The position numbers and the translations under genes are program-made. A DNA stretch of 64,000 nt from Candidatus Kapaibacterium sp. (lineage in GTDB: Bacteria > Bacteroidota > Ignavibacteria > Kapaibacteriales > UBA4661), in the NCBI GenBank assembly GCA_004292595.1, contig RDXM01000106.1:4946-68945 (forward strand), in the 5' to 3' direction. Of the stretch, positions 1,543 through 60,436 are shown piece by piece. A model generated the notes under the pieces. That model was not told where the DNA came from. It did not search any database and worked only from the letters and a program-made list of their open reading frames with translations. How positions within the stretch are numbered: position 1 is the stretch's first letter; each line of letters starts with the position of its first letter.

Positions 1543-3246
1543 TTAAAAATTCACTGCCAAACCCAGTCTGCCAAACGCACCGATATTCACAATGCCGCCA
1601 TCTATCGTCAAACCTGGAATTGCGCCTGGGTCGATTGGGGGTTCTGTGCCGTTCCGTCCCGTATAATGCCCGCCCGCGCTCAGTTCTAAAAACACCCCAA
1701 CTTGACGAGTGAAATTATACTGAAAACCCCCCAGCAAACCAACATACAAGCGCACGGGAGTAAAATTACTCAGCATCGTACCAATCGGCAGCCCCACGTA
1801 GGCATCAAGAGTTTGATTGCGCACAAAATGGTACGCTGGGCGCACGGTGAGAAAATGATAATCTGTGTAGCGAATCCTCGTTGTGGTGGTGGTTGTGGTC
1901 TGAATGCCTGTTCCTGTGGTTATTCGCGTTGTGTCGTTGATGTTTGGTCCTGGAAAATAGCCATACATCAAGCCTAAAGAAAACTGCGGCGATACATAAA
2001 AATCGCCTGAAATACTAAGCATTGGGAAAGAAACATCGCCCGAACCGCCTGTAAATCCTGTGGGAAAAGTACTCGGTGCGATAATTGTTGCCGGGATACC
2101 CATAATTGGACGATTCAGCGCGAAGCCCGCACCAATGCCCACGCGCAGCGTAAAGATGGGCAAGGCAGTGTCTTTGACAACAGCACGTGCGGTATCGCGT
2201 TTTATGGCTGGTGGCGGCGGAACAGGTTTTTTATCCGTTTGATAGGGTGCAAATTCGCCTTGCGGCTTGTCGCCCGTGCTTCGTTGTGGCATCGTGCGGG
2301 CAATTCCGCCCGGAGGATTGCTGCTGGTGGTCGGTGCTGTGGTCGTGCCTACGGGAGAGCGGCTCGCACTCGCTCCAGCACTGGGTTGTACGTTGTCCAA
2401 ATTTTTAATGCGCTCTTCCAATGCCGCCAAGCGTGCCGTCAGCTGTGCATTCAAAGCGCGTTCTTGCTCAAGGGGCGATAGTGATGGTGTACGCGACGGC
2501 GCATTCGAGCTAGCCGGCGGCGCAGAACGTGGCGGTAAATCACGCGGACGTAAGTTCTGCGGCGGTACTGACGAAGTTGGTGGCGCAGTGCGGCGTGTGT
2601 TTGGATTGAGACTGGTGCTGGTATTGGCGTTCAGTGCTGCATCGCCGCGTGAGGCGGGCATGGGCTGAAGGCGCGAGGCATCATCGCTCATCATGTTATC
2701 CAAGAGCATTTGCGTTGAATTGCGACTGGACTGCGGCGAGCGCGATTTGATGATGTCGTTAAAAATGTCCGAAGCCCGTTGCAATGCCGCGAGTGCTGCT
2801 TGGCGGTCGCCCATATCGCGGTAAACTAATCCCAAGTATTCGTAGCCTGTTGCTTGCCAATAGCGGTTGCCAGAGCGCGTTGCTCGCTCAATTCCCTCAT
2901 TGATATTTTTCTGCGCAAGGTCGTAATTACGTGCCTCGCGGTAGGTATTACCCATTTTGAGCAAACGCATTGTTTCCTCATTGTTTCCGCGCTCGCTTGC
3001 TCGCTCGTTTGCGCGGTCGCTTGTTTGCGCTGGTGGTCGTGCCGTCGCAGAGCGCGTCGGAACTGGTCTCGCGGGACGGCTCTGCGCCCATAGTTCCGAA
3101 GAAGCACAACAGCACACAAGCGCAAATGCGAGTGCGAGTGCAAAAATATTGAGACAACTCGGCACAAAGCGCAGGCGTGACAACGAGGATTCATGCGCAA
3201 AGCGTGGCGCAAAAAAGCGCGGCGAGGAAAAAGATATGAACTTCAT
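1543..3246 (-). CDS. secreted protein with a TPR region, coiled coil, Pro/Ser/Thr-rich linker and a C-terminal outer-membrane beta-barrel
   Basis: The N-terminus carries a signal-like hydrophobic segment. A TPR-like block follows (YREARNYDLAQ...YWQATGYEYLGLVYRDMGDRQAALAAL), then a leucine-zipper coiled coil and a long low-complexity P/S/T linker. The C-terminus has alternating-hydrophobic beta strands ending ...GLAVNF with a terminal aromatic residue. It is a paralog of the ORF at 3534-4835. Confidence 0.55.
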   Translation of the reverse strand: MKFISFSSPRFFAPRFAHESSLSRLRFVPSCLNIFALALAFALVCCCASSELWAQSRPARPVPTRSATARPPAQTSDRANERASERGNNEETMRLLKMGNTYREARNYDLAQKNINEGIERATRSGNRYWQATGYEYLGLVYRDMGDRQAALAALQRASDIFNDIIKSRSPQSSRNSTQMLLDNMMSDDASRLQPMPASRGDAALNANTSTSLNPNTRRTAPPTSSVPPQNLRPRDLPPRSAPPASSNAPSRTPSLSPLEQERALNAQLTARLAALEERIKNLDNVQPSAGASASRSPVGTTTAPTTSSNPPGGIARTMPQRSTGDKPQGEFAPYQTDKKPVPPPPAIKRDTARAVVKDTALPIFTLRVGIGAGFALNRPIMGIPATIIAPSTFPTGFTGGSGDVSFPMLSISGDFYVSPQFSLGLMYGYFPGPNINDTTRITTGTGIQTTTTTTTRIRYTDYHFLTVRPAYHFVRNQTLDAYVGLPIGTMLSNFTPVRLYVGLLGGFQYNFTRQVGVFLELSAGGHYTGRNGTEPPIDPGAIPGLTIDGGIVNIGAFGRLGLAVNF

Positions 3247-3306
3247 AGATGCTTGAATTCAAGAGGTTTGGTCGAATTGAACTACAAGAAAGTAGGCAAA
3301 AAAATA

Positions 3307-3501
3307 GGTAACTGGTCAGGTCTCAGCCATGAAGAGGGGACGCAGATGAAGATGATTGGATTGATGAAGATGATAGTGATAAAAAAAGAAGAGCGTCAAT
3401 GCAGACTTCATCCGTTGTTGATATTTTCTGCATTTTCGTCATCTTCATCCATTCAATCATCTTCATCTGCGTCCAAAAAAAATCACGACCTGACCAGTTA
3501 C
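3307..3501. repeat. 195-bp near-perfect palindrome with terminal inverted repeats GGTAACTGGTCAGGTC (family 2, MITE-like)
   Basis: GGTAACTGGTCAGGTC at 3307-3322 is the reverse complement of GACCTGACCAGTTAC at 3487-3501. The inner arm ggacgcagatgaagatgattggattgatgaagatga (3338-3373) pairs with the arm at 3438-3474 with 2 mismatches. The element sits in the gap between two paralogous genes. Confidence 0.55.
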
Positions 3502-3533
3502 AAAAATAGTAGAATGCTGAAGGCAGAACAGTA

Positions 3534-4835
3534 TTACTTCTTGCCAATCAAGAAACAGAAATACGCGCCTTCGTTGTCGCAATCGTACATCGTTACCAAG
3601 AATGTATGTGTGCCGCCATATTCATTGCTCCAGCCTATTTTCGCTAATGCCTCGCGGGTATTGGGCTTGCGAGAGAGCGTTTCGATGGGCTGTGCGCTGG
3701 TATCGGTTGATTGCGTTTGAGTCTGATTTTGCCCTGACGTTTGCGAGGATGTATTTTGCTGCTGATTTTGCTGCTGATTTTGCTGCCCGTTGTTGGACTG
3801 ATTGACCGTAGAGCTAGAATCAGTGCGCTGTCCAGCACTTGCTTCGTTGGGATTGAAGCGAATATCCTTGCGCTCAAGCACTACGCCTTGCGAATTGATG
3901 ATGCGCACGTCCAAATCACGCGCCTTCTGCGTACAGGCATCGCCCAAAATGAGGTATTGTCCAATCGGCACGTTGATTTCAATTTTCGTGGATTCGCCGC
4001 GCTTCAAGTAGCCAACAATCACCGTCCCGTCCACTCGCGCATTGCCGCCTTGCAAGCGGACTGCGCGGTCATTGATACCAAAATCTAAAGGCGCAAAACC
4101 GTTCATCCAGAGCGTACTTTCGCGGTATTTTGCGGTCGCTTCTAGCTCACGCTTACACTCGCTCATATCCAGCGACGACGAGCTTTTGAGCGACATGACG
4201 CTGCTGGATTCCAGTTGTTTTATGCGTCCTTCCAATTCTGAAATTTTTGATTGCAGCATCCGATTTTCATTTTGCAAGCGCGTGTTTTCGTCCTGCAAGC
4301 GTGTGTCGGTGGCGCTGACGGGCGGCGGTGTTGCCATTGCCATTGAGTTCTGCGCAGACATGGACGGCGGCGGCGCGGATGCACCCTGCTCTACATCAGC
4401 AATCACGGCGCGGAGAGCGTCATCGCTGCCTTGTCCGTTGCGCATCGTTACAATGCGGTCGTAGAGCGAAGCCGCTGTACGCAAGTATTCAAGCGCGAGC
4501 TGACGGTCGCCCATATCGCGGTAGAGCAAGCCCAAATACTCATATCCGACAGCCTCCCAGTACGTGCCGCTTCGTCCGCCCCGCACCATATCTATCCCAC
4601 GCTTGATGTAGTATTGCGCGAGGTCGTAGTTGCGAGCTTCGCGGTAGCTATTGCCCAATTTCAAATACCGAACACCCAGATTTTCTGCATTCACTCCGCC
4701 CGTGCGGCGATAGGTGGTCGGGGCATCGTTTGGCGGTGCATCTTGCCCCCAAAGCGTCCTTGGCTGGAAAGCAAGCACCGAAGCGGCAAGTGCCAATCCC
4801 GTACAAAGCGTTGATACTGTGTGCAACATTTTCAT
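3534..4835 (-). CDS. secreted TPR/coiled-coil protein, paralog of 1543-3246, with a different C-terminal domain and a Q/N-rich tail
   Basis: It begins with a signal peptide (MKMLHTVSTLCTGLALAASVLA). It shares with its neighbour the block LGNSYREARNYDLAQYYIKRGID...YWEAVGYEYLGLLYRDMGDRQLALEYL, followed by the coiled coil ENTRLQNENRMLQSKISELEGRIKQLE. The C-terminal domain is unrelated to the neighbour's. An NQQQNQQQN low-complexity stretch is present. Confidence 0.55.
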   Translation of the reverse strand: MKMLHTVSTLCTGLALAASVLAFQPRTLWGQDAPPNDAPTTYRRTGGVNAENLGVRYLKLGNSYREARNYDLAQYYIKRGIDMVRGGRSGTYWEAVGYEYLGLLYRDMGDRQLALEYLRTAASLYDRIVTMRNGQGSDDALRAVIADVEQGASAPPPSMSAQNSMAMATPPPVSATDTRLQDENTRLQNENRMLQSKISELEGRIKQLESSSVMSLKSSSSLDMSECKRELEATAKYRESTLWMNGFAPLDFGINDRAVRLQGGNARVDGTVIVGYLKRGESTKIEINVPIGQYLILGDACTQKARDLDVRIINSQGVVLERKDIRFNPNEASAGQRTDSSSTVNQSNNGQQNQQQNQQQNTSSQTSGQNQTQTQSTDTSAQPIETLSRKPNTREALAKIGWSNEYGGTHTFLVTMYDCDNEGAYFCFLIGKK

Positions 4836-5017
4836 AGACCTTTTCTCTGGAAACCACCCTGCTTTAGCGGGTGGAGGAAAGAGCAGCGAAATAGGTGCGG
4901 TTTTGCGGAGTCACACGGCTGCCGTGGCGGAGCAAACGCGCAGTTTTTCGCTTTCTTCTGTTAGTGATTGAATTAGTTGGTTTATTTTCAACATTTTTAA
5001 CTTGGTGTTTCGCTATC

Positions 5018-6304
5018 TCACACCGCATACCGATAGCCATCGCAACGCTGGACAATCTTGCAATATTTGTAGCTCACGCCTTGAACAGTGCCGTTTTTAT
5101 CCGTAATATTAAAACTACCTGACGACCGCACCGCCACTTTGCCCTCGTGTGTTCCACGCTTTGCACCGCTTGGAACTACCGCTTTGACCATATCGCCTGT
5201 TTGAAATCCTTTGACACTTTTTGCGCCCTTCGCACTCGTGCGTGGAAAGCCGTATTTGTCCACACGGCACATTTGGCGATTGCCCCAGCCTTGCGCTGTA
5301 ATGGTGAGCGGGCGCATTCCTGCGTCTATTCGTACTGCTTCGCCGCTTGCACCAACACACGCCGCATCTATCCAATGCGCTTTTGCGTACCCTTGGCGGT
5401 TGCGATTGTACTTTGTTCGCCCGCCACTACCAAGCTCAACGGGCAAACCAAATAATTGCAAACGATTATACAATTCCCATCGTGGTGCGTTCACCGCCGC
5501 CGTGTCTTTGAGCGGCATTCGTGCTTGCTTGTGCAGATGTTCGTGTCCAAATTCTTCCGCCGTTTGTGTGCCTTTGCGCTCGTTGCATTTGCGACAAGCA
5601 AGCGTCAGGTTTGACACGCGATTTGAGCCGCCACGTGCTTTCGGAATGATATGCTCTACCTCAAGCGGAACATCCTTTGCCGTGCAGTATGCGCACCTGC
5701 GCTGCCATTTTTCCAGCAAATATTCCCGCACTTCGTAGCCTTGTAACGCGCCTTGCTGGTATTCTACACCTGAAATTTCCGCATCCTGCATCTTCTGTGT
5801 GTCGAAGCGCACGAGTTCTTGACTCATGCTTTTTACGGGCGACAACCGCGTGAGGCGTTGCACCCACGTTGTTATGTTTGCCAAACGGCTTTCGAGCGAT
5901 GGCGGCAGCCAAGCACCACGATTACCGTGGCGTGGGCGTGTTCGGTTCAAAAAACGTGGTTTGCGATAGCGTGTGTGGCGATTGCGCCGTCCGCGTCGCA
6001 CACCGCGCCGTTGCTCCAATGCTTCGTGGACGCGCTGCCCTCGGTGTGTGAGTTCGGCAGCAAACACTACCTCGCCCGTCGTTTCCTCTACCAGAGCAAT
6101 ACCTGTAGTTTTGCTTCCTGGGTCGAGTTTTGCCCGCAACGCTCGTGGCGTTGCATCGGGATAAGAACGCTTCAAAATAATCGTAAACGGAAACCTCCGA
6201 TAGACTGCCGCTTTGCCTTCGCCAAGCAGCATACGCGCTCGCTTGGGGCGACACGGTGCAAGAGGTCGTTTGTCCGTATCTAGCACAAAAACTTTTTGCA
6301 TCAA
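5018..6304 (-). CDS. iscB: IscB, an OMEGA-class RNA-guided endonuclease of the RuvC/HNH type that is ancestral to Cas9
   Basis: The 428-aa protein shows the full IscB domain order. The N-terminal PLMP-like domain reads VFVLDTDKRPLAPCRPKRARMLL. RuvC-I is KLDPGSKTTGIALV. An Arg-rich bridge helix follows (RRGVRRGRRNRHTRYRKPRF). RuvC-II is EISGVEYQQGALQGYEVREYL. The HNH domain is CAYC...EVEHIIPKARGGSNRVSNLTLACRKCNERKG. RuvC-III is AKAHWIDAACVG. A C-terminal TAM-interacting-like beta domain completes the protein. Confidence 0.85.
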   Translation of the reverse strand: MMQKVFVLDTDKRPLAPCRPKRARMLLGEGKAAVYRRFPFTIILKRSYPDATPRALRAKLDPGSKTTGIALVEETTGEVVFAAELTHRGQRVHEALEQRRGVRRGRRNRHTRYRKPRFLNRTRPRHGNRGAWLPPSLESRLANITTWVQRLTRLSPVKSMSQELVRFDTQKMQDAEISGVEYQQGALQGYEVREYLLEKWQRRCAYCTAKDVPLEVEHIIPKARGGSNRVSNLTLACRKCNERKGTQTAEEFGHEHLHKQARMPLKDTAAVNAPRWELYNRLQLFGLPVELGSGGRTKYNRNRQGYAKAHWIDAACVGASGEAVRIDAGMRPLTITAQGWGNRQMCRVDKYGFPRTSAKGAKSVKGFQTGDMVKAVVPSGAKRGTHEGKVAVRSSGSFNITDKNGTVQGVSYKYCKIVQRCDGYRYAV

Positions 6305-6560
6305 AAATACTCCTTAAAGAGTGTCGCGGCTTGCACCGCGTAATGGTCGCCTCGACAATGTTTTAACGGCTTTTTGCACTCAACACACTGGCTTACACCG
6401 TCCGCCTGTTTAATGTTGAGCGACAGAGCGTAAGACTGGCAAGCATCCTACGGTGTCCTGACCGAAAAAACGTAGATTACTCTCTACAAGAGCAATCTGA
6501 GTCTGGTCAATGTCGGCTTGTATTTCCTACAAGCCACCCGTCTTTAGCCGGTGGTGATTG
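6305..6560 (-). ncRNA. candidate omega-RNA (IscB guide RNA scaffold) in the iscB 5' leader
   Basis: About 250 nt of non-coding sequence lie between the iscB start codon and the left-end hairpin. The region is rich in local stems, for example gtcGCGGCttgcaCCGCgtaatggtcgcctcGAC and the terminal CCACCC/GGTGG hairpin. The position matches where IscB omega-RNAs are known to be encoded. The guide segment would lie at or beyond about 6555. Confidence 0.4.
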
Positions 6561-6836
6561 ACAATGTGCATCTCCGAAAACTGTGAAAAAGTATGTGTAA
6601 TTGATTGCGTGTAGAAATGATACATGATGCACTTTAGAGGATTCAAACATTGTGCCAATCGCTGCAAAGGCTCGTAAAATCTGGATAAAAAAAGCACAAA
6701 AAAAACGCACAAAAAAAAACGCACAAAAAAGGACGTACAAAAAAAGCTGGACAAAGAGCCTCGAAAAACCTCTTTGATAACCACAACTTTTTTGTACGTC
6801 CTGAATGTAATAATTTTCTGTTTCGTTTTCGCTTTT

Positions 6837-7436
6837 TTAGTGTGTTTCGCCTTCAATCGAAGCAAGCGTATGATTTTTTGCTCGCGATTCAGCTGCCATG
6901 CGCTCTTTATAGGAAAGCACTTTCGTTTGAAGTGCTTCATCGCTCGCGCCCAGAATCTGCACTGCCAGCAAGCCCGCATTCTTGCCCGCACCAATCGCTA
7001 CCGTCGCAACAGGTACGCCGCCGGGCATCTGCACAATCGAGAGCAGCGAATCTACGCCCGCAAGCGTTTTCGTGAGAATCGGTACGCCAATCACAGGCAA
7101 CGGCGAATACGCAGCCACCATACCCGGCAAATGTGCCGCGCCACCCGCACCCGCAACAATCACCCGAATCCCGCGTGAATGTGCATTTGTAGCGTAATCA
7201 GCCATATCCGCAGGTGTGCGGTGCGCCGAAATAACGCGCATTTCGTAGGGAATACCAAAATCGCGGCAAACCTGCGCCGCTTCTTGCATCGTGGGCAAAT
7301 CGGAATCGCTTCCCATGATAATTCCAACAAGTGACGAGGGCAATTCTTCGGAATTGCGCTCTACAAGCGGCTCTGCGACTTGTATTGCCAGCGAAAGAGG
7401 AACGGGTTTGTTCATACGGTCTTCAAAATTTTTCAT
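6837..7436 (-). CDS. purE: N5-carboxyaminoimidazole ribonucleotide mutase
   Basis: [39 protein letters not shown]...[18 protein letters not shown]...[10 protein letters not shown]. The first 35 aa appear to be an N-terminal extension, so the true start may be an internal codon. Confidence 0.85.
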
Positions 7437-7480
7437 AGAATCATGAGAGAGTCAATATTCGTCAAAGCAATACAATTCAA

Positions 7481-7834
7481 TTACTTGTTCTGAATTTCTT
7501 GCTTCTTTTCCTGTTGTGGGTGCTGCTTTTGTTCTTGCTTTTGTTCTTGTTCGCCAATGCGCCGAGCGCGATTTCGTGCGCTGTCGAGGATTTGCCGCAA
7601 GCGTTCTGGTTTCCCAGCTAATTCCTGAAAACGCTGCCGAAAAGAAAATTCGGTAAATCCGTGCTGTTTCAACACCTCCGCAACCCGCTTATTTGCTTGG
7701 TTGCTATCAAGAAATTGCTCCCGCGCAATAATCACTTCCGTGTAGGTTTGCATAAAAATTTCATCGTCATTCGACCACCGCGAACACGCCGCCAGAGCGC
7801 AGCACAACACGATTCCAAGCAATATTCGTTTCAT
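7481..7834 (-). CDS. hypothetical lipoprotein
   Basis: Signal peptide with lipobox (MKRILLGIVLCCALAACS) and an E/Q/K-rich C-terminus. Confidence 0.45.
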   Translation of the reverse strand: MKRILLGIVLCCALAACSRWSNDDEIFMQTYTEVIIAREQFLDSNQANKRVAEVLKQHGFTEFSFRQRFQELAGKPERLRQILDSARNRARRIGEQEQKQEQKQHPQQEKKQEIQNK

Positions 7835-7846
7835 GTATTATCCTGA

Positions 7847-8539
7847 TTATCTTTGTATTCGTTCGTGCGCAAAAGCGAGTATTTGCGCCACTTGCTGGTC
7901 AATCGAAAGAGCGGACGTGTCAATTTCAATCGCATCGGTGGCTTTGGTAAGCGGGCTGATTTCGCGCTCAGAATCTTGACGGTCGCGCTCGCCGAGCTGG
8001 GCGCACATTTCATCAAGCGTGATGTTTGCTGCGCTCGCGCCAGCACCAAGCTCCGCCAAACGCCGCCGCGCCCGCTCTTCTAGCGACGCAACAAGGAAAA
8101 TCTTGAGTTCTGCTTGCGGAAAAACGACCGTGCCAATATCGCGCCCGTCCATGACCACGCCGCCTGCGCTGCCCAGTTCGCGCTGCCGCTCGACCATTGC
8201 AGAGCGCACCACGCCGAGTGCGCTCACGCCGCTCACGGCTTCGGTTACTTCATGCGAGCGTATTTCCGCGCTTACGTCTTCGCCATTCAGCAACGTGCGT
8301 TGTCCGTCGGTGCTTGGTAAAAGCTCAATTCGTGCGCTCTGCAATATTGCTTGCAGAGCGTCGTTGTGAATTGCCGCACCCGCTCGCAAGGCTGCAAGCG
8401 TGATTGCGCGGTACATTGCGCCTGTGTCGATGTACACGTAGCCGAGCGTGTGTGCTATGTTGCGGGCAGTGGTGCTTTTTCCCGAACCCGCCGGACCATC
8501 CAGCGCAATAATGATGCGCCGTTCAGAAGATTGTGGCAT
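7847..8539 (-). CDS. cmk: cytidylate kinase
   Basis: IIIALDGPAGSGKSTTARNIAHTLGYVYIDTGAMYRA: a P-loop with the CMP-kinase signature. Confidence 0.9.
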   Translation of the reverse strand: MPQSSERRIIIALDGPAGSGKSTTARNIAHTLGYVYIDTGAMYRAITLAALRAGAAIHNDALQAILQSARIELLPSTDGQRTLLNGEDVSAEIRSHEVTEAVSGVSALGVVRSAMVERQRELGSAGGVVMDGRDIGTVVFPQAELKIFLVASLEERARRRLAELGAGASAANITLDEMCAQLGERDRQDSEREISPLTKATDAIEIDTSALSIDQQVAQILAFAHERIQR

Positions 8540-8716
8540 TGGTGTTTACGGTATGTTTACGGTGTGTTCACAGTGTCAGTTGTAGTCAATTATTCCAGCA
8601 AACAAGCCGCTAAGTTACGAGAATTTTCAGAATTGCGCCGTAAAATTTTGAGCATGGTTTTTGCATCATTACCACCGTTACTTTGTTCAATACCTTTACA
8701 AACTTCTCCTTCTCGC

Positions 8717-11700
8717 ATGAAACCTCGCTTTTGCGGCACTCGCACGTGCATTTATCTTTTCGCGCTTGGTTGTCTCATTTTAGAATGCGCCTTTGGTCTC
8801 AGTCTTGGAATGATACGACCAGCAATGGTGAATGCTTCCCCGCGCAAAAACACTGCAAACACAAGCAATGACAATGCTTTGAAGCAATCGCACGAGCAAA
8901 CAATCTACGTGAAAATGCGCCCGCGCATTCACTCGGAAAGACTGGCACGGAAATGGCTTCAATCCTTTCTGCGGAGCGTTTTTGTACAAGTTTCTGCGCC
9001 ATCGTTCTTTGAAAATAACAGAAATACTATTCTTCCTACACAGCAGCATTTCTTCAAGAGTGGCACAGACATTCTTGTCTGTGAGCGTTGGCGCGGGATG
9101 CTAGCGGAAACACAGACAAGAATGTCTGTGCCACGGAAGCCTGATTTTACAGGGCTTTCAGAACCTCTCTCATTTGCCCAAGGCGTAATCGCAGAAAGCA
9201 TTCACACCTTTCGGCTTGGAAACGCCGTCATTGCTCGCTTTCAGCTTCCGCAGAATGTTTCTACGGAAAAATTATGCAGTGTGCTGGAAGAGCAGCGCGA
9301 GTGCGTAGAATACGCCGAAAGCGCACAAACACTCGCTCCTCGCCAAATTCAAACACCAACACAAGTAACCGACCCGCTTGCCGCGCAGCAATATCACCTC
9401 GACCGCATCCAAATGCGTGAAGCATGGACAGCCGCATGGAATCAGGCTTCTGGCTCTTCCGCTCGGCAGCCCGATAGCAGCATGGTAATTGCCGTTGTGG
9501 ATACAGGCGTGGATTGGGAGCATGAAGAATTAGCGGCAAATATTTGGACAAATCCCGCCGAAAGCGGCATGGATGCAAGCGGACGCGACAAACGCTTCAA
9601 TGGCATTGACGACGACCGCAATGGGAAAATTGACGATTGGCACGGTTGGGATTTTGTCGGTAGCATTTCCGAAGATGAGCGCGAGGCAGGCTTATTTCGT
9701 GAAGATAACGACCCCAAACCCCGCATCAACGCTACTCTCGACCCCGCAGAGCAGTTGCAACACGGCACACACGTCGCTTCCACACTCGCTGCGCTGATGG
9801 ACAATGGCAAAGGCGGCGTAGGAATCGCGCCACGATGCCGCATTCTGCCGATAAAATGCTCGACCGATGGCTCGCGTGTTGGCGGGATTTCCCGTCCTTA
9901 CGAAGCGGTGCTGTATGCTGCGCAAATGGGCGCGAAAATTATTGTGTGTAGCTTTGGAGGCGGCGTATTTAGTCGCTTCGAGCAGGAAGTCATTCACACC
10001 GTGAATAGTATGGGCGCACTCGTCGTTGCCGCCGCAGGAAACGACGCACAAGTGAGCGACAATGCGGACTTTCCCGCTTCCTACGACAAAGTATTGTGTG
10101 TTGGTGCGAGTTTGCAGAGCGACATTGCTGCTTCGTACAGCAATTACGGCTTGAAAGTTCATGTGTTTGCACCTGGCGACCGCATCACCAGCGCGATTAT
10201 TGGCAACAGATATAGCAACGAATGGTCGGGAACATCAATGGCAGTGCCGATTGTAGCGGGTGTGGCAGCACTGGTGCGCCTTCAAAACCCCGCGTGGTCG
10301 CCCGAAGCGGTGATTCAGCAGATTCGTGCAAGCTCAGACAATGTTCTTACAAACCAAAGAACCACGCGCCCTCTGGGCTATTTCGGTAGAATAAACGCGC
10401 TCAAAGCACTCACGACGCACCCTCCGGGACTAACGATTGCAGAAACAAGCATTAGTGCGGCAGGTGGCGTGATGAACGATGCCGTTCCAACACAGGTAAC
10501 GATTCGCTGCCGCAATCTTCTCCAAGCCGCACAAAATGTACGTTTGCTGCTGGTTTCGCTGGACAATCGCGCAAGTATTGTTGGTGAATTGCAAACGCTC
10601 GGAAGCATTGCAAACAACGACGAAAAAACGGCGCAATTCAGCATTCAACTTGAACCAAGCGCATTTCAAGGTGCGGCGCAAACCACGCAAAACGGCACGA
10701 TTGCTCGTACGGCGGAGTTTGCACTGGTGATGCTTGCAGATAATCAAATTGGCAATGAGAATTACTCGAATTACGAGCGCGTCTCCCTTCCGTATTCACT
10801 TCGTCCGCAGAATGGCGCACAAATACTGGCTTCCGCGCAATTAAACTTCGGAACTGCCGATGTTGTAAACAGCACACTCAGTTCTTTGCCAAGTTCTTTG
10901 CCAACATTTACCAAAACAGCGAATCTCACCCTGAGAAATTTCGGCACAGAAAGCTGTACGCTTCTTTCCATGCAGCTTTCGGGCGTGAATCCATCAGATT
11001 TTTCAGCGCAAATGCCCGCTTCTCCGCTCGCTGCGGGAGCGACGGCGCAAGTTCCTATTCAATTTCGTTCTCAACAAGCAATGGCGGGGCTTCGCACGGC
11101 GCGAATCACAACAGAAGTGCAATCAGCGCAGGCGGGAACGCAAGGGAATACGGGCTTTGGCAGTACAAGTTTTGGCAGCATTCAAGGCGGGTATGATTTT
11201 TCGAGAGAACGCGAGCAGTACCGCGAAATCACGGATGGAAACTCGCTTCGCCCCACGCCAACAGCACCATTGGACGATATTCAAACAGACGTGAATCTTG
11301 GTTTTTCGTTCGCAATCAACGGCACACGCTACGAGCGTGTAACGGTCAGCTCGAACGGTTTTTGCGCTTTCGCGCCCGCATCAACGCTTGTTTCGCAAAG
11401 TACGCCCGTTTTTTCGCCATTAAGCACAAGTCTCCGCGCAAATGCGTATATTGCAGCCTTCGCCCGCGACCTTGTTGCTGCCGCGCCGAATGCGAGTATC
11501 AGCACGAAAACCGAGGGTGCTGCACCGAATCGGGTCTGCATTCTGCAATGGCAAAATATGAACGCCATGCAAACGGCAAAACGCTCTGCACGCGAGACGG
11601 ATACTGCTCTTACGGTTTCAATGCAACTCCGATTCTATGAAAATTCCAATGTGATTGAATGCGTTTTTGGCAAATGCCGCGCAAGCAGGTTTTTCGATGG

Positions 11701-12436: not shown

Positions 12437-12552
12437 ACGACAAAACCTCTGAAAGGTGCATAAAATCAGACTTCAGTGGCTTGAGGCTTCTTGCCTGTGT
12501 TTGTCGTCTGAAACCCGCACCAACACTCACAGACAAGAATGTCTGTGCCACT
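12437..12552. repeat. family 1 palindromic repeat copy with an extended left arm, in tandem with the previous copy
   Basis: acacgacaaaacctctgaaaggtgcataaaatcagaCTTCAGTGGCttgaggcttcttgcctgtgtttgtcgtctgaaacccgcaccaacactCACAGACAAGAATGTCTGTGCCACt. Confidence 0.6.
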
Positions 12553-13993: not shown

Positions 13994-14023
13994 TTGTTTG
14001 AATTTTATAGATTGAAAAACGCG

Positions 14024-14060
14024 CAACGCCTGTTAGAATCACGGTTCTAACAGGCGTTAT
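14024..14060 (+). terminator. rho-independent terminator
   Basis: AACGCCTGTTAGAAtcacggTTCTAACAGGCGTT followed by a U-rich tract, directly after the stop codon. Confidence 0.6.
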
Positions 14061-14104
14061 GCGTTTTAAAATGCTGTGTAAAAATAATGATACCAAATTT
14101 AATA

Positions 14105-15130: not shown

Positions 15131-15218
15131 TCAGGCTTCAGTGGCTTGAGACATTCCTGTCTGTGTTTGTCGCCTGAACCCTTCACCAACACTCACAGAC
15201 AGGAATGTCTGTGCCACT
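15131..15218. repeat. family 1 palindromic repeat copy
   Basis: tcaggCTTCAGTGGCttgagacattcctgtctgtgtttgtcgcctgaacccttcaccaacactCACAGACAGGAATGTCTGTGCCACt. Confidence 0.6.
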
Positions 15219-16221: not shown

Positions 16222-16299
16222 AGTGGCACAGACATTCCTGTCTGTGTTTGTCGCCTAGAACCAGCACCAATACTCACAGACAAGAATGTCTGTGCCACT
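16222..16299. repeat. family 1 palindromic repeat copy
   Basis: agTGGCACAGACATTCCTGTCTGTGtttgtcgcctagaaccagcaccaatactCACAGACAAGAATGTCTGTGCCACt. Confidence 0.6.
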
Positions 16300-16339
16300 A
16301 TTGGTTTAGTCTACTGAATTTGGTCAGTAAAGCAGCGTA

Positions 16340-39417: not shown

Positions 39418-39526
39418 AAAGCATTGTCAATATGTTTGACTCGCGCAATTTTTCCAGTTGGAAGCCGCTTCGGAAGGAGTTTCCAACTTTTTTCTTTTCT
39501 TCCCTTCAGAATATTCACACCTTTCC

Positions 39527-40933
39527 ATGAAAAAATCTCCTCGTCCCGCACCCAAAACGGGCATTATTTCTCGTAGTGGCGGCAAAACATCCTTCCGCAA
39601 ACTCGACCCCAATGCGCCTCCCAAAAGCCGCACCAAACCTACTCGCGCTGGCGAATCCCCTCGCTCCCGCACCGCTCGACCCGATACAGACGACGAAACA
39701 AAGCCCGCTCGCAAAACCAGTGCGCCCGCACGAAAGCTCTATGGTGATAAAAAATCTGAAGGCAAGAAATTCGGGGACAAGAAGTTTGGTGAGAAGAAGT
39801 TTGGCGAGAAAAAATTTGACGACAAAAAATCTGCTGAGAAGAAGTTTGGTGAAAAGAAATTTGAGGATAAAAAATTTGAGGATAAAAAATTTGAGGATAA
39901 AAAATTTGGTGAGAAGAAGTTTGATGATAAGAAGCTCGGCGAGAAGAAGTTTGGCGAAAAGAAATTCGGTGAGAAACGATTTGAAGGGAGGAAGTTTGAA
40001 GGTAAGAGGGTTGAAAATGAACACTTTAGCACGAAAAAATCAGATCGAACAAGCCACAAAGCCGTTTCAGAAGCTGCCGCGTCCGCCAAATCCAGTCCGC
40101 AAGCGGGCAAGGGTGGGAAGCGACCACCAAGCACGAAAGCCAGCAACACTGCGCTTCTGCGCTTGAATAAATACATTGCCGATGCAGGTATTTGTTCGCG
40201 GCGGCAGGCAGATGAGTACATTGAGCAAGGCAGGGTCAAGGTCAATGGCAAATTGGTAACCGAACAGGGAATGAAGGTGCATCTTGCTGACCTCGTAACG
40301 GTAAACGGCGAGCCAATAAATGCGGAAAAGCATCTAACATACGTCGTACTGAACAAGCCAAAAGATTATATCACAACGACCAGCGACGAAAAAGGGCGCA
40401 AAACCGTGATGGAGCTTATTCCTTTGAAACAACGTATTTATCCCATTGGTAGGCTCGACCGTCATACGACGGGCGTTCTTTTGCTGACCAACGACGGGGA
40501 TTTAGCGCACCGTCTCATGCACCCAAGTTATGAAGTATCAAGGATTTATCGTGTGTATATTGACAAACGCCTCACGCAAAACGATATGCGCAATATTTCC
40601 AAAGGTGTGAAAGTAGAGGACGAAAACGGTGATTTTTATATTTCTGGCGAGTGTAACATTGCCATTGACCCCGAAGACCCACGCGCCGTTACGGTGGAAC
40701 TTGCTGAGGGAAAAAACCGTGAGGTACGGCGTATTTTTGCGGCTCTGGGCTATGAAGTGGAAAAGCTCGACCGCAAGGCATATGCAGGTATTTCCTCGCG
40801 TGGGCTGGGACGCGGCGAGTATCGCCATCTTTCGCCACTGGAAGTACGGGCTTTGGAGCAGTTAGTCAAACTCGACCACCGCTTAGAAAACGCCACGACT
40901 GCTGCGAAAACCCGCACAAAAGCTCGGCGGTGA
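39527..40933 (+). CDS. rluB: 23S rRNA pseudouridine synthase (RluB/RsuA family) with a long Lys-rich N-terminal tandem-repeat extension
   Basis: An S4 domain (LLRLNKYIADAGICSRRQADEYIEQGRVKVNGK) and the catalytic motif IYPIGRLDRHTTGVLLLTNDGDLAHRLMHP. The N-terminal 200 aa consist of (E/D)KKFG pentapeptide repeats. The start at 39527 (MKKSPRP...) is preferred over 39458. Confidence 0.8.
   Translation: MKKSPRPAPKTGIISRSGGKTSFRKLDPNAPPKSRTKPTRAGESPRSRTARPDTDDETKPARKTSAPARKLYGDKKSEGKKFGDKKFGEKKFGEKKFDDKKSAEKKFGEKKFEDKKFEDKKFEDKKFGEKKFDDKKLGEKKFGEKKFGEKRFEGRKFEGKRVENEHFSTKKSDRTSHKAVSEAAASAKSSPQAGKGGKRPPSTKASNTALLRLNKYIADAGICSRRQADEYIEQGRVKVNGKLVTEQGMKVHLADLVTVNGEPINAEKHLTYVVLNKPKDYITTTSDEKGRKTVMELIPLKQRIYPIGRLDRHTTGVLLLTNDGDLAHRLMHPSYEVSRIYRVYIDKRLTQNDMRNISKGVKVEDENGDFYISGECNIAIDPEDPRAVTVELAEGKNREVRRIFAALGYEVEKLDRKAYAGISSRGLGRGEYRHLSPLEVRALEQLVKLDHRLENATTAAKTRTKARR
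39745..40015 (+). repeat. about 17 tandem copies of a 15-bp unit (GAGAAGAAGTTTGGT-like) encoding (E/D)KKFG repeats inside rluB
   Basis: Direct repeats are visible in the DNA (gagaagaagtttggcgagaaaaaatttgacgacaaaaaa...). They are translated as KKFGDKKFGEKKFGEKKFDDKK... The antisense ORF at 39515-40024 is an artefact of this repeat. Confidence 0.7.
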
Positions 40934-40965
40934 AGGCTTTCTACAAAGGATTTTTGCAACGTGTT

Positions 40966-41041
40966 TTCGGGAAACCCGTTACCGCGAAACCCGTTCTACG
41001 CTTAGGAAAGCGTAGGACGGGAAAGACCTGACCAGTTACGA
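40966..41041. repeat. family 2 repeat, truncated copy (right half only)
   Basis: gggaaacccgttaccgcgaaacccgttctacgcttaggaaagcgtaggacgggaaaGACCTGACCAGTTAC matches the right half of the copy at 45801-45945. Confidence 0.5.
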
Positions 41042-42394: not shown

Positions 42395-42476
42395 CTTCAG
42401 TGGCACAGACATTCTTGTCTGTGATTCTTCAAACTCTGATAAGGACTCACAGACAAGAATGTCTGTGCCACTGAGG
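42395..42476. repeat. family 1 palindromic repeat copy with a divergent core
   Basis: CTTCAGTGGCACAGACATTCTTGTCTGTGattcttcaaactctgataaggactCACAGACAAGAATGTCTGTGCCACTGAGG. Confidence 0.6.
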
Positions 42477-45285: not shown

Positions 45286-45322
45286 AACCGCCGCTTGAAA
45301 TCTGGGTTTCAAGCGGCGGTTT
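45286..45322. other. 16-bp-stem hairpin, first copy of a duplicated stem-loop
   Basis: AAACCGCCGCTTGAAAtctggGTTTCAAGCGGCGGTTT is repeated almost identically at 45968-46004. Confidence 0.5.
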
Positions 45323-45384
45323 GCGAATGTTGGGAAATGAATGTATTTTTGATGTATTCGCATTGTCATCAACTATCTCACGCC

Positions 45385-45792
45385 ATGACGTTTACCTTTC
45401 CCATCGAAACCTACGCGCTTCTTGAGAAACAAATCGGTCAGGAAGCCGCATTACACATTGCTCGCTCAATGGAGCAGGCGGCAAATGCTTTTGCCCAAGA
45501 AGCACAGAATGTTGCCCAACAAAAGAAGATTGAAATTCGGGATGAAATGAGCAAAGAACTTGCCTCGAAGGCAGATGTAGCACTAGTGCGGGTAGAACTT
45601 CAAGCAGTTGAGAATAAACTTCAAGGCAAAATTGATACGCTCGAAGCACGATTGTCAGGTAGAATTGATGCCGTCGAAGCCCGTCTTGACCGCAAATTGA
45701 CAATTTACATGATTGTCATTCTTTGCGCTATTTTCATCACCAACCAAGATACGGTCTCGTTTTTGCTGCGATTGCTGGGTGTGCTGAAGTAA
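45385..45792 (+). CDS. small coiled-coil protein with a C-terminal TM helix (DUF1640-like)
   Basis: MTFTFPIETYALLEKQIGQEAA... repeated ELQAVENKLQGKIDTLEARLSGRIDAVEARLDRKL heptads, then IVILCAIFI. The family assignment is from memory. Confidence 0.4.
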   Translation: MTFTFPIETYALLEKQIGQEAALHIARSMEQAANAFAQEAQNVAQQKKIEIRDEMSKELASKADVALVRVELQAVENKLQGKIDTLEARLSGRIDAVEARLDRKLTIYMIVILCAIFITNQDTVSFLLRLLGVLK

Positions 45793-45800
45793 CGAAAGAA

Positions 45801-45945
45801 GTAATTGGTCAGGTCTTGGTCTTCCCGTCCTACCGTTTCTGAACGGTAGAACGGGTTTCACGGCACTGTTTTTTGGGAAAACCGTTATCGCGAAACCCGT
45901 TCTACGCTTAGGAAAGCGTAGGACGGGAATACCTGACCAGCTACC
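45801..45945. repeat. family 2 MITE-like element, full copy of 145 bp
   Basis: Terminal inverted repeats of about 30 bp: GTAATTGGTCAGGTCTTGGTCTTCCCGTCCTAC ... GTAGGACGGGAATACCTGACCAGCTACC. An internal palindrome gtagaacgggtttc/gaaacccgttctac is present. Confidence 0.6.
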
Positions 45946-45967: not shown

Positions 45968-46004
45968 AAACCGCCGCTTGAAATCTGGGTTTCAAGCGGC
46001 GGTT
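45968..46004. terminator. duplicated 16-bp-stem hairpin (second copy), likely a bidirectional terminator for the lipoprotein gene
   Basis: Same sequence as 45286-45322, located just 3' of the minus-strand gene at 46033-46536. Confidence 0.5.
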
Positions 46005-46032
46005 TGTGTTTCTGTAAAGCGAGGAAGATGCT

Positions 46033-60318: not shown

Positions 60319-60436
60319 ACACGACAAAACTTATGAAAAGCGCGTAAAATCAGGCTTCAGTGGCACAGGCATTCTTGCCTGTGTTCATCGCTTGAACCTC
60401 GCACCAACACTCACAGACAAGAATGTCTGTGCCACT
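60319..60436. repeat. family 1 palindromic repeat copy with an extended left arm
   Basis: acacgacaaaacttatgaaaagcgcgtaaaatcaggCTTCAGTGGCACAGGCATTCTTGCCTGTGttcatcgcttgaacctcgcaccaacactCACAGACAAGAATGTCTGTGCCACt. Confidence 0.6.

What the first reader, a model, noticed from the sequence alone, without database searches (positions are those of the whole stretch)
3307..3501. 195-bp near-perfect palindrome with GGTAACTGGTCAGGTC ends between two paralogous TPR genes; related family 2 copies elsewhere
The element has perfect 16-bp terminal inverted repeats and nearly perfect 36-bp inner arms. It occupies the whole gap between two tandem paralogs (1543-3246 and 3534-4835). The same terminal motif (GGTAAcTGGTCAGGTcTT) forms the ends of a 145-bp MITE-like element at 45801-45945 and of a truncated copy at 40966-41041. 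It therefore looks like a second mobile palindromic family rather than a simple terminator. A long palindrome between duplicated genes could also promote recombination or gene conversion between the paralogs.
Basis: seen in the sequence. Interest (0 to 1): 0.5.

Follow-up and report, generated by a model that had tools for sequence, protein, structure and literature searches.

The report
Miniature IS66-type transposon between TPR genes
The 195-bp palindrome is a real but ordinary piece of selfish DNA: a small gene-less transposon (a MITE) that carries the end sequences of an IS66-family insertion sequence and jumped into the gap between two older tandem TPR genes of a Kapaibacterium genome.

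Summary
Window 3308-3501 is a 194-bp element with perfect 15-bp (not 16-bp) terminal inverted repeats, GTAACTGGTCAGGTC. It has 36-nt inner arms that are 94% complementary. The window also holds a 144-bp relative (45801-45944) and a half copy (40964-41039).

The window comes from a Candidatus Kapaibacterium MAG. Three related MAGs carry ten more complete elements with the same ends. All are intergenic and lie at unrelated sites, and 8-bp target-site duplications are perfect in 9 of the 12 complete elements. One copy (L162) belongs to the same subfamily as the 195-bp element, and its homology stops exactly at the repeat ends. The conserved TPR gene pair in three more distant relatives has a gap of only 62-98 bp and no element.

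The same 15-mer, with 8-bp duplications, bounds single-ORF IS66-family insertion sequences. These are full-length elements in Actinomycetota, a 1528-bp degenerate copy, a 708-bp deletion derivative, and transposase-end fragments in the MAG that also carries MITEs.

Verdict: a MITE family moved by an IS66-family (ISBst12-like) transposase. The recombination idea has no support. This is a new member of a known kind, of low to moderate interest.

The parts
3308..3501 (.). Complete 194-bp MITE, the focal element. It has no coding capacity of its own and folds into one long hairpin.
   Evidence: Homology to the L162:5244-5416 copy begins and ends exactly at these coordinates.
3300..3307 (.). Left copy of the 8-bp target-site duplication AAAAATAG.
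   Evidence: read directly. Identical to 3502-3509.
3308..3322 (+). Left terminal inverted repeat GTAACTGGTCAGGTC.
   Evidence: The same 15-mer bounds IS66-family insertion sequences.
3338..3373 (.). Left inner arm of the palindrome. It contains GATGAAGATGA twice.
   Evidence: I1, D1.
3439..3474 (.). Right inner arm, 94% complementary to 3338-3373.
   Evidence: I1, D2.
3487..3501 (-). Right terminal inverted repeat (GACCTGACCAGTTAC on the + strand).
3502..3509 (.). Right copy of the 8-bp target-site duplication AAAAATAG.
3534..4835 (-). Upstream TPR gene (433 aa). Its stop codon lies 32 nt before the element.
   Evidence: The protein is 100% identical to a Ca. Kapaibacterium MAG protein, TAE28182.1.
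1543..3246 (-). Downstream TPR paralog (567 aa). Its start codon lies 61 nt after the element.
   Evidence: The 5' leader block next to the ATG is conserved with L174.
45801..45944 (.). Second complete family member, 144 bp. Its interior is unrelated to the focal element. TIRs are GTAATTGGTCAGGTC and GTAGCTGGTCAGGTA, and the flanking 8-mers match at 6 of 8 positions.
   Evidence: (I5).
40964..41039 (.). 5'-truncated copy (right half plus right TIR) of the 144-bp subfamily. It lies between the convergent rluB-like and rodA genes.
   Evidence: (D7).

Best explanation
[quoted passage not shown] It is a non-autonomous transposon that keeps only the 15-bp ends recognised by a single-ORF IS66-family DDE transposase of the ISBst12-like group. 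A transposase supplied in trans by a full-length copy elsewhere binds the two GTAACTGGTCAGGTC ends. It then inserts the element at a staggered 8-bp cut in AT-rich intergenic DNA, and repair of that cut produces the AAAAATAG duplication.

Here the element landed 32 nt downstream of the stop codon of the first gene of an older tandem TPR pair. The interior is a subfamily-specific hairpin with no sign of a function of its own.

What is shown:
- the element's anatomy;
- the target-site duplications;
- multiple copies at unrelated sites;
- the empty orthologous site;
- identity of the ends with those of IS66-family elements.

What is inferred:
- mobilisation in trans;
- that a working transposase exists, or existed, in this genome;
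- any effect on transcription of the TPR genes. On the sense strand the 194-nt hairpin is followed by CUAUUUUUUU, so it could attenuate read-through.
For: (1) Perfect 15-bp TIRs and a perfect abutting 8-bp direct repeat.

(2) There are 12 complete elements across the window and MAGs JAAFHM01, JAAFIV01 and JALONG01. Each has different flanking 8-mers. The duplications are perfect in 9, match 7/8 in 2 and 6/8 in 1. All 13 copies, counting the half copy, are intergenic.

(3) L162:5244-5416 is 88-91% identical to the focal element over its aligned segments. Its flanks are unrelated and its TSD is different (CTCAAATC).

(4) The TPR pair is conserved in L174 (83% aa), L175 and L177/178/179 (71-72% aa), with gaps of 98, 62 and 67 bp and no element. 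The window gap of 287 bp equals 85 + 194 + 8.

(5) The same 15-mer bounds a 1514-bp contig that encodes a 477-aa IS66-family transposase (PF03050 3e-40, zf-IS66, NF033517 3e-82). At least 10 further Actinomycetota loci have it next to IS66 transposase genes, with 8-bp duplications where both ends are visible (TTCGCAGA, CTAGCGCG).

(6) In the MITE-bearing lineage:
- the L127 contig end is the C-terminus of an IS66-like transposase whose stop codon overlaps the TIR;
- L090 is the matching left end, homologous to the left end of L189;
- L180 holds a transposase remnant abutting the TIR (PF03050 1.5e-5; all but 3 of its 99 homologues carry PF03050);
- L189 is a 1528-bp full-length IS with both TIRs;
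- L186-188 hold a 708-bp internally deleted intermediate.

(7) Literature: IS66-family inverted repeats start with GTAA(GCG) and make 8-bp direct repeats (PMC11946415). The ISBst12-group element ISDge4 has the TIR GTAACTGCTCAGCA, a single ORF and an 8-bp direct repeat (PMC12898284).
Against: - No IS66-family transposase gene lies in the 64-kb window. I could not search the rest of this MAG, so a source of transposase in the same genome is not shown.
- The only full-length copy I recovered from the likely same lineage (L189) has an in-frame stop and a frameshift, and its flanks show no duplication. The taxon of that 1.7-kb contig is unknown.
- MITEs and full-length IS share only 15-19 terminal bases. 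The MITEs are therefore not simple deletion derivatives of the IS copies seen.
- The relatives with the empty site are different species (at most 83% aa), and neighbourhood synteny beyond the TPR pair is not conserved. The exact pre-insertion sequence is therefore not available.
Confidence: 0.88

Rival explanations
1. The hairpin is primarily a host transcription element for the TPR genes, such as an intrinsic terminator, attenuator or mRNA 3'-end stabiliser. On this view it is conserved for that role and is not mobile.
For: - It lies 32 nt after a stop codon, on the sense strand of both genes.
- The RNA hairpin is very stable (-94.3 kcal/mol, z = -10.7) and is followed by CUAUUUUUUU.
- 8 of 13 family members lie within 35 nt of a stop codon.
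Against: - It is absent from the same gap in all relatives examined.
- It has target-site duplications and copies at unrelated sites.
- The terminator scan found no terminator-like site. The U-run starts 3 nt after a 194-nt stem-loop, which is unlike canonical terminators.
- Two copies lie in divergent (5'-5') gaps.
- A secondary, exapted effect on read-through is not excluded. It would sit on top of the MITE origin rather than replace it.
Confidence: 0.05
2. It is a MITE, but it is moved by a different IS family that also makes 8-bp duplications, such as ISL3, IS256, IS1595 or ISAs1.
For: An 8-bp duplication alone is not diagnostic. The window holds no transposase of any kind next to the ends.
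Against: - Every full-length or fragmentary element found with these exact ends encodes an IS66-family transposase.
- The ends start with GTAA, the IS66 hallmark (PMC11946415, PMC12898284).
Confidence: 0.04
3. It is a REP/BIME-type or IS200/IS605-type palindromic element (PATE). It would be moved by a Y1/RAYT or TnpA enzyme, possibly linked to the IscB/omega-RNA element 1.5 kb away.
For: An IscB gene with HEARO RNA lies at 5018-6562, and the genome is rich in small palindromes.
Against: Those systems use subterminal hairpins and have no terminal inverted repeats. They make no target duplication and insert next to a short fixed motif. Here the TIRs are perfect, and the 8-bp duplications have a different sequence at every site. 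The element shares no sequence with the IscB unit.
Confidence: 0.02
4. It is an assembly artefact: a palindromic chimera created by the metagenome assembler.
For: An independent short-read contig (L001, SRR7244341) ends inside the palindrome at window 3457. This shows that assemblers struggle at this site.
Against: - L001 still contains the right TIR and 45 nt of the element in the same context.
- The element is internal to a 73.6-kb contig.
- It has a clean 8-bp duplication, and a homologous copy exists in a different MAG.
Confidence: 0.01

Closest known systems
ISBst12 group of the IS66 family (single-ORF IS66-type insertion sequences, e.g. ISDge4 of Deinococcus geothermalis)
   Same: - The ends begin with GTAAC. 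ISDge4 has GTAACTGCTCAGCA against GTAACTGGTCAGGT here, 11 of 14 identical.
- Both make an 8-bp target duplication.
- Full-length elements with exactly the window's 15-mer encode one IS66-family DDE transposase and are about 1.5 kb long (PMC12898284).
   Different: The window element is 194 bp and encodes no transposase. It shares only the terminal 15-16 bases with the full-length elements. It is a passenger of that family, not a member able to move by itself.
Bacterial MITEs in general (Correia elements of Neisseria, Chunjie of Geobacter, Nezha of cyanobacteria, MITEAba12)
   Same: - Size is 100-250 bp, with TIRs and fixed-length target duplications.
- Location is intergenic and copies are many.
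- Size and sequence vary between subfamilies that keep the same ends.
- A strong hairpin fold forms across the whole element (PMC10969869).
   Different: - The parent family differs. The 2024 review of prokaryotic MITEs does not mention IS66, and my literature searches found no IS66-derived MITE. This is an absence in a partial library, not proof.
- The host lineage (Kapaibacteria/Ignavibacteria-like Bacteroidota) has no described MITEs that I could find.
SPRITE/RUP/BOX-type repeats of Streptococcus pneumoniae (terminator-like small repeats)
   Same: They are hairpin-forming intergenic repeats that often sit just after genes. They could act as transcription terminators or RNA-stability elements (PMC10969869).
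   Different: No terminator signature was called here, and no expression data exist. The resemblance is positional only.

Membership tests
MITE (miniature inverted-repeat transposable element) | Short (under about 500 bp) and without a transposase gene | tested here: met
   The element is 194 bp. The only ORFs crossing it are mechanical ones that overlap the flanking genes. Rfam finds no RNA family there.
MITE (miniature inverted-repeat transposable element) | Terminal inverted repeats | tested here: met
   15 of 15 bases are complementary. The same ends occur on 12 complete elements.
MITE (miniature inverted-repeat transposable element) | Target-site duplication of fixed length whose sequence differs from site to site | tested here: met
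   All duplications are 8 bp. They are perfect in 9 of 12 complete elements, 7/8 in 2 and 6/8 in 1. The sequences all differ.
MITE (miniature inverted-repeat transposable element) | Multiple copies at non-homologous sites, with presence/absence differences between genomes | tested here: met
   There are 13 copies in 4 genomes. The same-subfamily copy in L162 has unrelated flanks. The TPR-TPR gap is empty in L174, L175 and L177-179. Whole-genome copy number is not known, because the scan was truncated.
MITE (miniature inverted-repeat transposable element) | An autonomous element with the same ends exists | tested here: met
   Examples are L099, L070, L089, L146 and others in Actinomycetota, L189 (1528 bp), and the IS ends L090/L127 in the MAG that also carries MITEs L067, L103 and L164.
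MITE (miniature inverted-repeat transposable element) | The autonomous partner is present in the same genome, and mobilisation in trans is demonstrated | not testable with these tools
   The window has no IS66 transposase. The other contigs of this MAG could not be searched, and no transposition assay is possible.
IS66 family, ISBst12-like group (as the parent of the MITE) | Ends beginning with 5'-GTAA | tested here: met
   The ends are GTAACTGGTCAGGTC. The rule comes from PMC11946415 and PMC12898284.
IS66 family, ISBst12-like group (as the parent of the MITE) | 8-bp target duplication | tested here: met
   The literature values are in PMC11946415 and PMC12898284.
IS66 family, ISBst12-like group (as the parent of the MITE) | The same ends flank a gene for a DDE_Tnp_IS66 transposase, as a single ORF without tnpA/tnpB | tested here: met
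   L099 has one 477-aa ORF with PF03050, zf-IS66 and NF033517 in 1514 bp. L189 has one interrupted reading frame in 1528 bp.
Intrinsic (Rho-independent) terminator | Short GC-rich stem-loop immediately followed by a U-tract | tested here: not met
   No terminator-like site was called in 3100-3700. The structure is a 194-nt hairpin, and the U-run starts 3 nt after the stem. Whether it stops transcription is untested.
REP/BIME or IS200/IS605-type palindromic elements | No TIRs and no target duplication; hairpins recognised by a Y1 (HUH) enzyme | tested here: not met
   TIRs and 8-bp duplications are both present.

The most novel reading that the evidence does not exclude
This may be the first recognised MITE family derived from the single-ORF (ISBst12-like) branch of IS66. 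It has proliferated in Kapaibacteria/Ignavibacteria-like Bacteroidota as several modular hairpin subfamilies. Its 15-bp ends are identical to those of insertion sequences in Actinomycetota, which implies either extreme conservation of the transposase binding site or transfer between phyla. The copies cluster just after stop codons, and one subfamily keeps local stem-loops through compensatory changes. Some copies may therefore have been taken over by the host as 3'-end RNA structures.
Probability: 0.3. Interest if true: 0.4.

Novelty: new member of a known kind. Interest (0 to 1): 0.25.

Why it matters
- Annotation: the element explains a striking palindrome as a routine transposon insertion. 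It also gives a precise signature (GTAACTGGTCAGGTC ends plus an 8-bp duplication) for masking and counting this repeat in Kapaibacteria and Ignavibacteria MAGs, where it breaks short-read assemblies.
- Transposon biology: it links a MITE family to the poorly studied single-ORF branch of IS66. It also supplies natural minimal substrates (15-bp ends) for testing what that transposase needs.
- The TPR genes: the insertion separates two formerly adjacent genes by a 194-nt hairpin, which may uncouple their transcription. That remains to be tested.

Tried and rejected
- Genome-collection scan with the 15-mer.
- Viral-contig scan. It returned 57 stretches, 56 with a single match and one with two same-strand matches 375 nt apart, which looks like chance; nothing was followed up.
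- Metagenome scan with the subfamily 20-mer GGACGCAGATGAAGATGATT. It gave 5 hits, none with the TIR, all chance matches in other sequence. No further copies of the 195-bp subfamily were found that way.
- Protein search with the 35-aa transposase tail of L127. Padding with X found only one fragment. The 68-aa L180 fragment returned only short fragments. Two of these led to L186-L190.
- No intact transposase from the Kapaibacteria lineage was recovered.
- Sigma-70 promoter scan. It found one promoter-like match inside the element (TTGACG-18-TATCAT, minus strand), but 1.0 is expected by chance, and this phylum may use other promoter signals. I give it no weight.
- IS ends compared with MITE interiors. 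There is no similarity beyond 15-19 terminal bases, so I reject the idea that these MITEs are simple internal deletions of the IS copies seen.
- Gene conversion between the TPR paralogs. The only shared DNA is 62 nt at 74% identity (D8), so there is no sign of it.
- A link to the neighbouring IscB/HEARO unit was rejected because the two share no sequence and the end architecture is different.

Full report
**1. The observation**

Window 3308-3501 is a 194-bp palindromic element.
- Its outer arms, 3308-3322 and 3487-3501, are 15 nt and perfectly complementary.
- Its inner arms, 3338-3373 and 3439-3474, are 36 nt and 94% complementary.
- The 16-mer with up to 3 mismatches occurs 6 times in the window against 0.17 expected. 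No shuffle of 100 reaches that count.
- As single-stranded RNA on the minus strand, which is the sense strand of both neighbouring genes, the element folds into one long hairpin of -94.3 kcal/mol (z = -10.7). As DNA it gives -53.4 kcal/mol (z = -10.2).

The other two sites are also real.
- 45801-45944 is a complete 144-bp element. Its ends are GTAATTGGTCAGGTC and GTAGCTGGTCAGGTA, and its interior is unrelated to that of the focal element.
- 40964-41039 is the right half of the same subfamily, with a perfect right end.

**2. Surroundings**

Both flanking genes run on the minus strand. They are 3534-4835 (433 aa) upstream and 1543-3246 (567 aa) downstream. Both carry TPR_12, and their N-terminal 250 residues are 36% identical. 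The gap between them is 287 bp. The element plus one copy of the duplicated 8-mer fills 202 bp of it, which leaves 85 bp.

The 433-aa protein is 100% identical to TAE28182.1 from a Candidatus Kapaibacterium MAG on a 73.6-kb contig. That genus belongs to the phylum Bacteroidota.

**3. The family in other genomes**

Most of its 115 stretches were single chance hits. Three related MAGs stood out: "Ignavibacteria" bin51 (JAAFHM01), bin62 (JAAFIV01) and Ca. Kapaibacterium Prado071 (JALONG01).

In those MAGs the motif occurs as inverted pairs 142-202 bp apart. With one more element found by accident in L174, there are 12 complete elements, counting the two in the window.
- Each has its own flanking 8-mer.
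- The two 8-mers are identical in 9 elements, match 7/8 in 2 and 6/8 in 1.
- All 13 copies, counting the half copy, are intergenic, and 8 lie within 35 nt of a stop codon.
- The interiors fall into several subfamilies. One is a modular network that includes the window's 144-bp element. The "GATGAAGATGA" type is separate and shares only the ends with the rest.

L162:5244-5416 in bin62 is a second member of the focal subfamily.
- It is 88-91% identical over its aligned segments.
- The similarity starts and stops exactly at the terminal repeats.
- Its flanks are unrelated and its duplication is different, CTCAAATC.

**4. The empty site**

Homologues of the 433-aa TPR protein at 83%, 72% and 71% identity were traced to their contigs. 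In every case the same two TPR genes lie in tandem.
- The gap is 98 bp in L174 (bin62).
- The gap is 62 bp in L175/L176.
- The gap is 67 bp in L177/L178/L179.
- None of these gaps holds the element.

In the alignment, the leader next to the downstream start codon is conserved between the window and L174. The 202 bp form a clean insertion relative to all three. The tandem duplication is therefore older than the insertion. The element is not a conserved orthologous terminator.

One caveat applies. These relatives are different species, and gene order beyond the pair is not conserved. This is an empty orthologous gap, not the exact pre-insertion sequence.

**5. The parent element**

Ends that start with GTAA and an 8-bp duplication are the hallmarks of the IS66 family (PMC11946415). 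Its single-ORF ISBst12 group includes ISDge4, which has the end GTAACTGCTCAGCA and an 8-bp repeat (PMC12898284).

The scan itself provided the test.
- L099 is a 1514-bp contig bounded by the exact 15-mer. It encodes one 477-aa protein with DDE_Tnp_IS66 (3e-40), zf-IS66 and NCBIfam "IS66 family transposase" (3e-82).
- At least ten further Actinomycetota loci carry homologous transposase genes next to the same ends. Where both ends are visible they show 8-bp duplications: TTCGCAGA in L070 and CTAGCGCG in L146.

The lineage that carries the MITEs also has traces of the parent.
- In bin51, contig L127 ends 110 nt inside an element. Its last 35 codons resemble the IS66 transposase C-terminus, and the stop codon overlaps the terminal repeat. 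L090 is the other end.
- L180 holds a 68-aa transposase remnant abutting the same end (PF03050, 1.5e-5). All but 3 of its 99 database homologues carry PF03050.
- Following two of those homologues gave L189. This is a 1528-bp element with both ends (63-77 and 1576-1590) and an IS66-type reading frame broken by one in-frame stop and one frameshift. Its left end is homologous to L090.
- The same route gave L186-L188, a 708-bp internally deleted derivative with both ends.

Together these cover the range from full-length IS through a deletion derivative to the MITE. The window itself has no IS66 transposase.

**6. Mechanism**

The best-supported reading is that an IS66-family DDE transposase, made by a full-length copy elsewhere, recognises the two 15-bp ends. 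It inserts the element at a staggered 8-bp cut, and repair produces the duplication. The perfect ends and perfect duplication suggest a fairly recent event in this lineage. Mobilisation in trans, and the presence of a working transposase in this genome, are inferred and not shown.

An effect on the TPR genes is possible. The insertion puts a 194-nt hairpin followed by CUAUUUUUUU between two genes that are 62-98 bp apart in relatives. However, the terminator scan calls nothing, and the single promoter-like match is at chance level.

**7. Rivals**

- A conserved terminator is contradicted by the empty sites and the duplications.
- Another IS family with 8-bp duplications is contradicted by the transposase found next to these ends every time.
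- REP- or IS200/IS605-type elements, and a link to the neighbouring IscB/HEARO unit, do not fit elements with terminal inverted repeats and target duplications.
- An assembly artefact is unlikely. An independent contig (L001) contains the right end in the same context, although it breaks inside the palindrome. A homologue also exists in another MAG.

**8. Novelty and score**

MITEs are a well-known kind of element. A 2024 review of prokaryotic MITEs does not mention IS66, and my searches of the held literature found no IS66-derived MITE. That library is partial, and I could not consult ISfinder. I therefore rate this a new member of a known kind.

The identity of the 15-bp ends between Actinomycetota insertion sequences and Bacteroidota MITEs is a modest curiosity. 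So are the compensatory stem-loops in the sister subfamily. Interest: 0.25.

Noticed in passing
window 5018-6562 (minus strand): An IscB-type gene (RRXRR + HNH, 428 aa, 5018-6304) lies next to its HEARO/omega RNA (6340-6562, 145 bits, E = 2e-30), directly upstream of the TPR pair. No such unit sits at that position in L174, L175 or L177, so it looks like another lineage-specific mobile insertion.
   Followed up: partly
window 9111-9134, 12528-12551, 15194-15217, 16275-16298, 42448-42471, 60412-60435 and partner arms (e.g. 42399-42472, 16222-16300): A different and more abundant small palindromic repeat family. Its roughly 25-nt ends, AGTGGCACAGACATTCTTGTCTGTG, are themselves hairpins. At least 7 copies of 75-130 bp lie in intergenic gaps. 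Its ends are unrelated to the GTAAC family. I did not examine its duplications or its parent element.
   Followed up: partly
window 45286-45323 and 45969-46006; similar at 14017-14061: An identical 38-nt GC-rich hairpin, AACCGCCGCTTGAAATCTGGGTTTCAAGCGGCGGTTTG, occurs twice 683 bp apart. The two copies bracket ORF 45295-45792 and the 144-bp MITE. It may be a repeated terminator-like unit or a third small repeat family.
   Followed up: no
window 39718-40017: About 20 tandem copies of a 15-nt unit lie inside the N-terminal part of the RluB/RluF-like pseudouridine synthase ORF (39458-40933). They encode a lysine-rich pentapeptide repeat (..FGEKK..).
   Followed up: no
window 45830-45849, 45902-45921, 40996-41015; L068:3338-3482, L164, L067: In the 144-bp subfamily each arm carries its own local stem-loop. 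The stems differ between arms and between copies by compensatory changes: CTACCGTT/AACGGTAG, CTACGCTT/AAGCGTAG and CTACGCC/GGCGTAG. This hints that the local hairpin, and not only the long palindrome, is maintained.
   Followed up: partly
L174:9204-9348 (bin62, JAAFIV010000025.1): The related species with the empty TPR-TPR gap has its own family member, with TSD AATTATGC, just downstream of the second TPR gene. The same gene pair has thus been hit independently at a different position.
   Followed up: yes
L001 (Logan SRR7244341 contig, = window 3457-9088): An independent short-read assembly of the same sequence terminates inside the palindrome. Contigs L090 and L127 end 84-110 nt inside the IS. 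These repeats fragment MAG assemblies.
   Followed up: yes
L099, L070, L089, L146, L060 and other Actinomycetota loci: A group of single-ORF IS66-family insertion sequences in Pseudonocardia, Frankia and other actinomycetes has exactly the same 14-15-bp ends as the Kapaibacteria MITEs. Their transposases are only 34-41% identical to the L189 copy. L060 carries several copies in 8 kb.
   Followed up: partly
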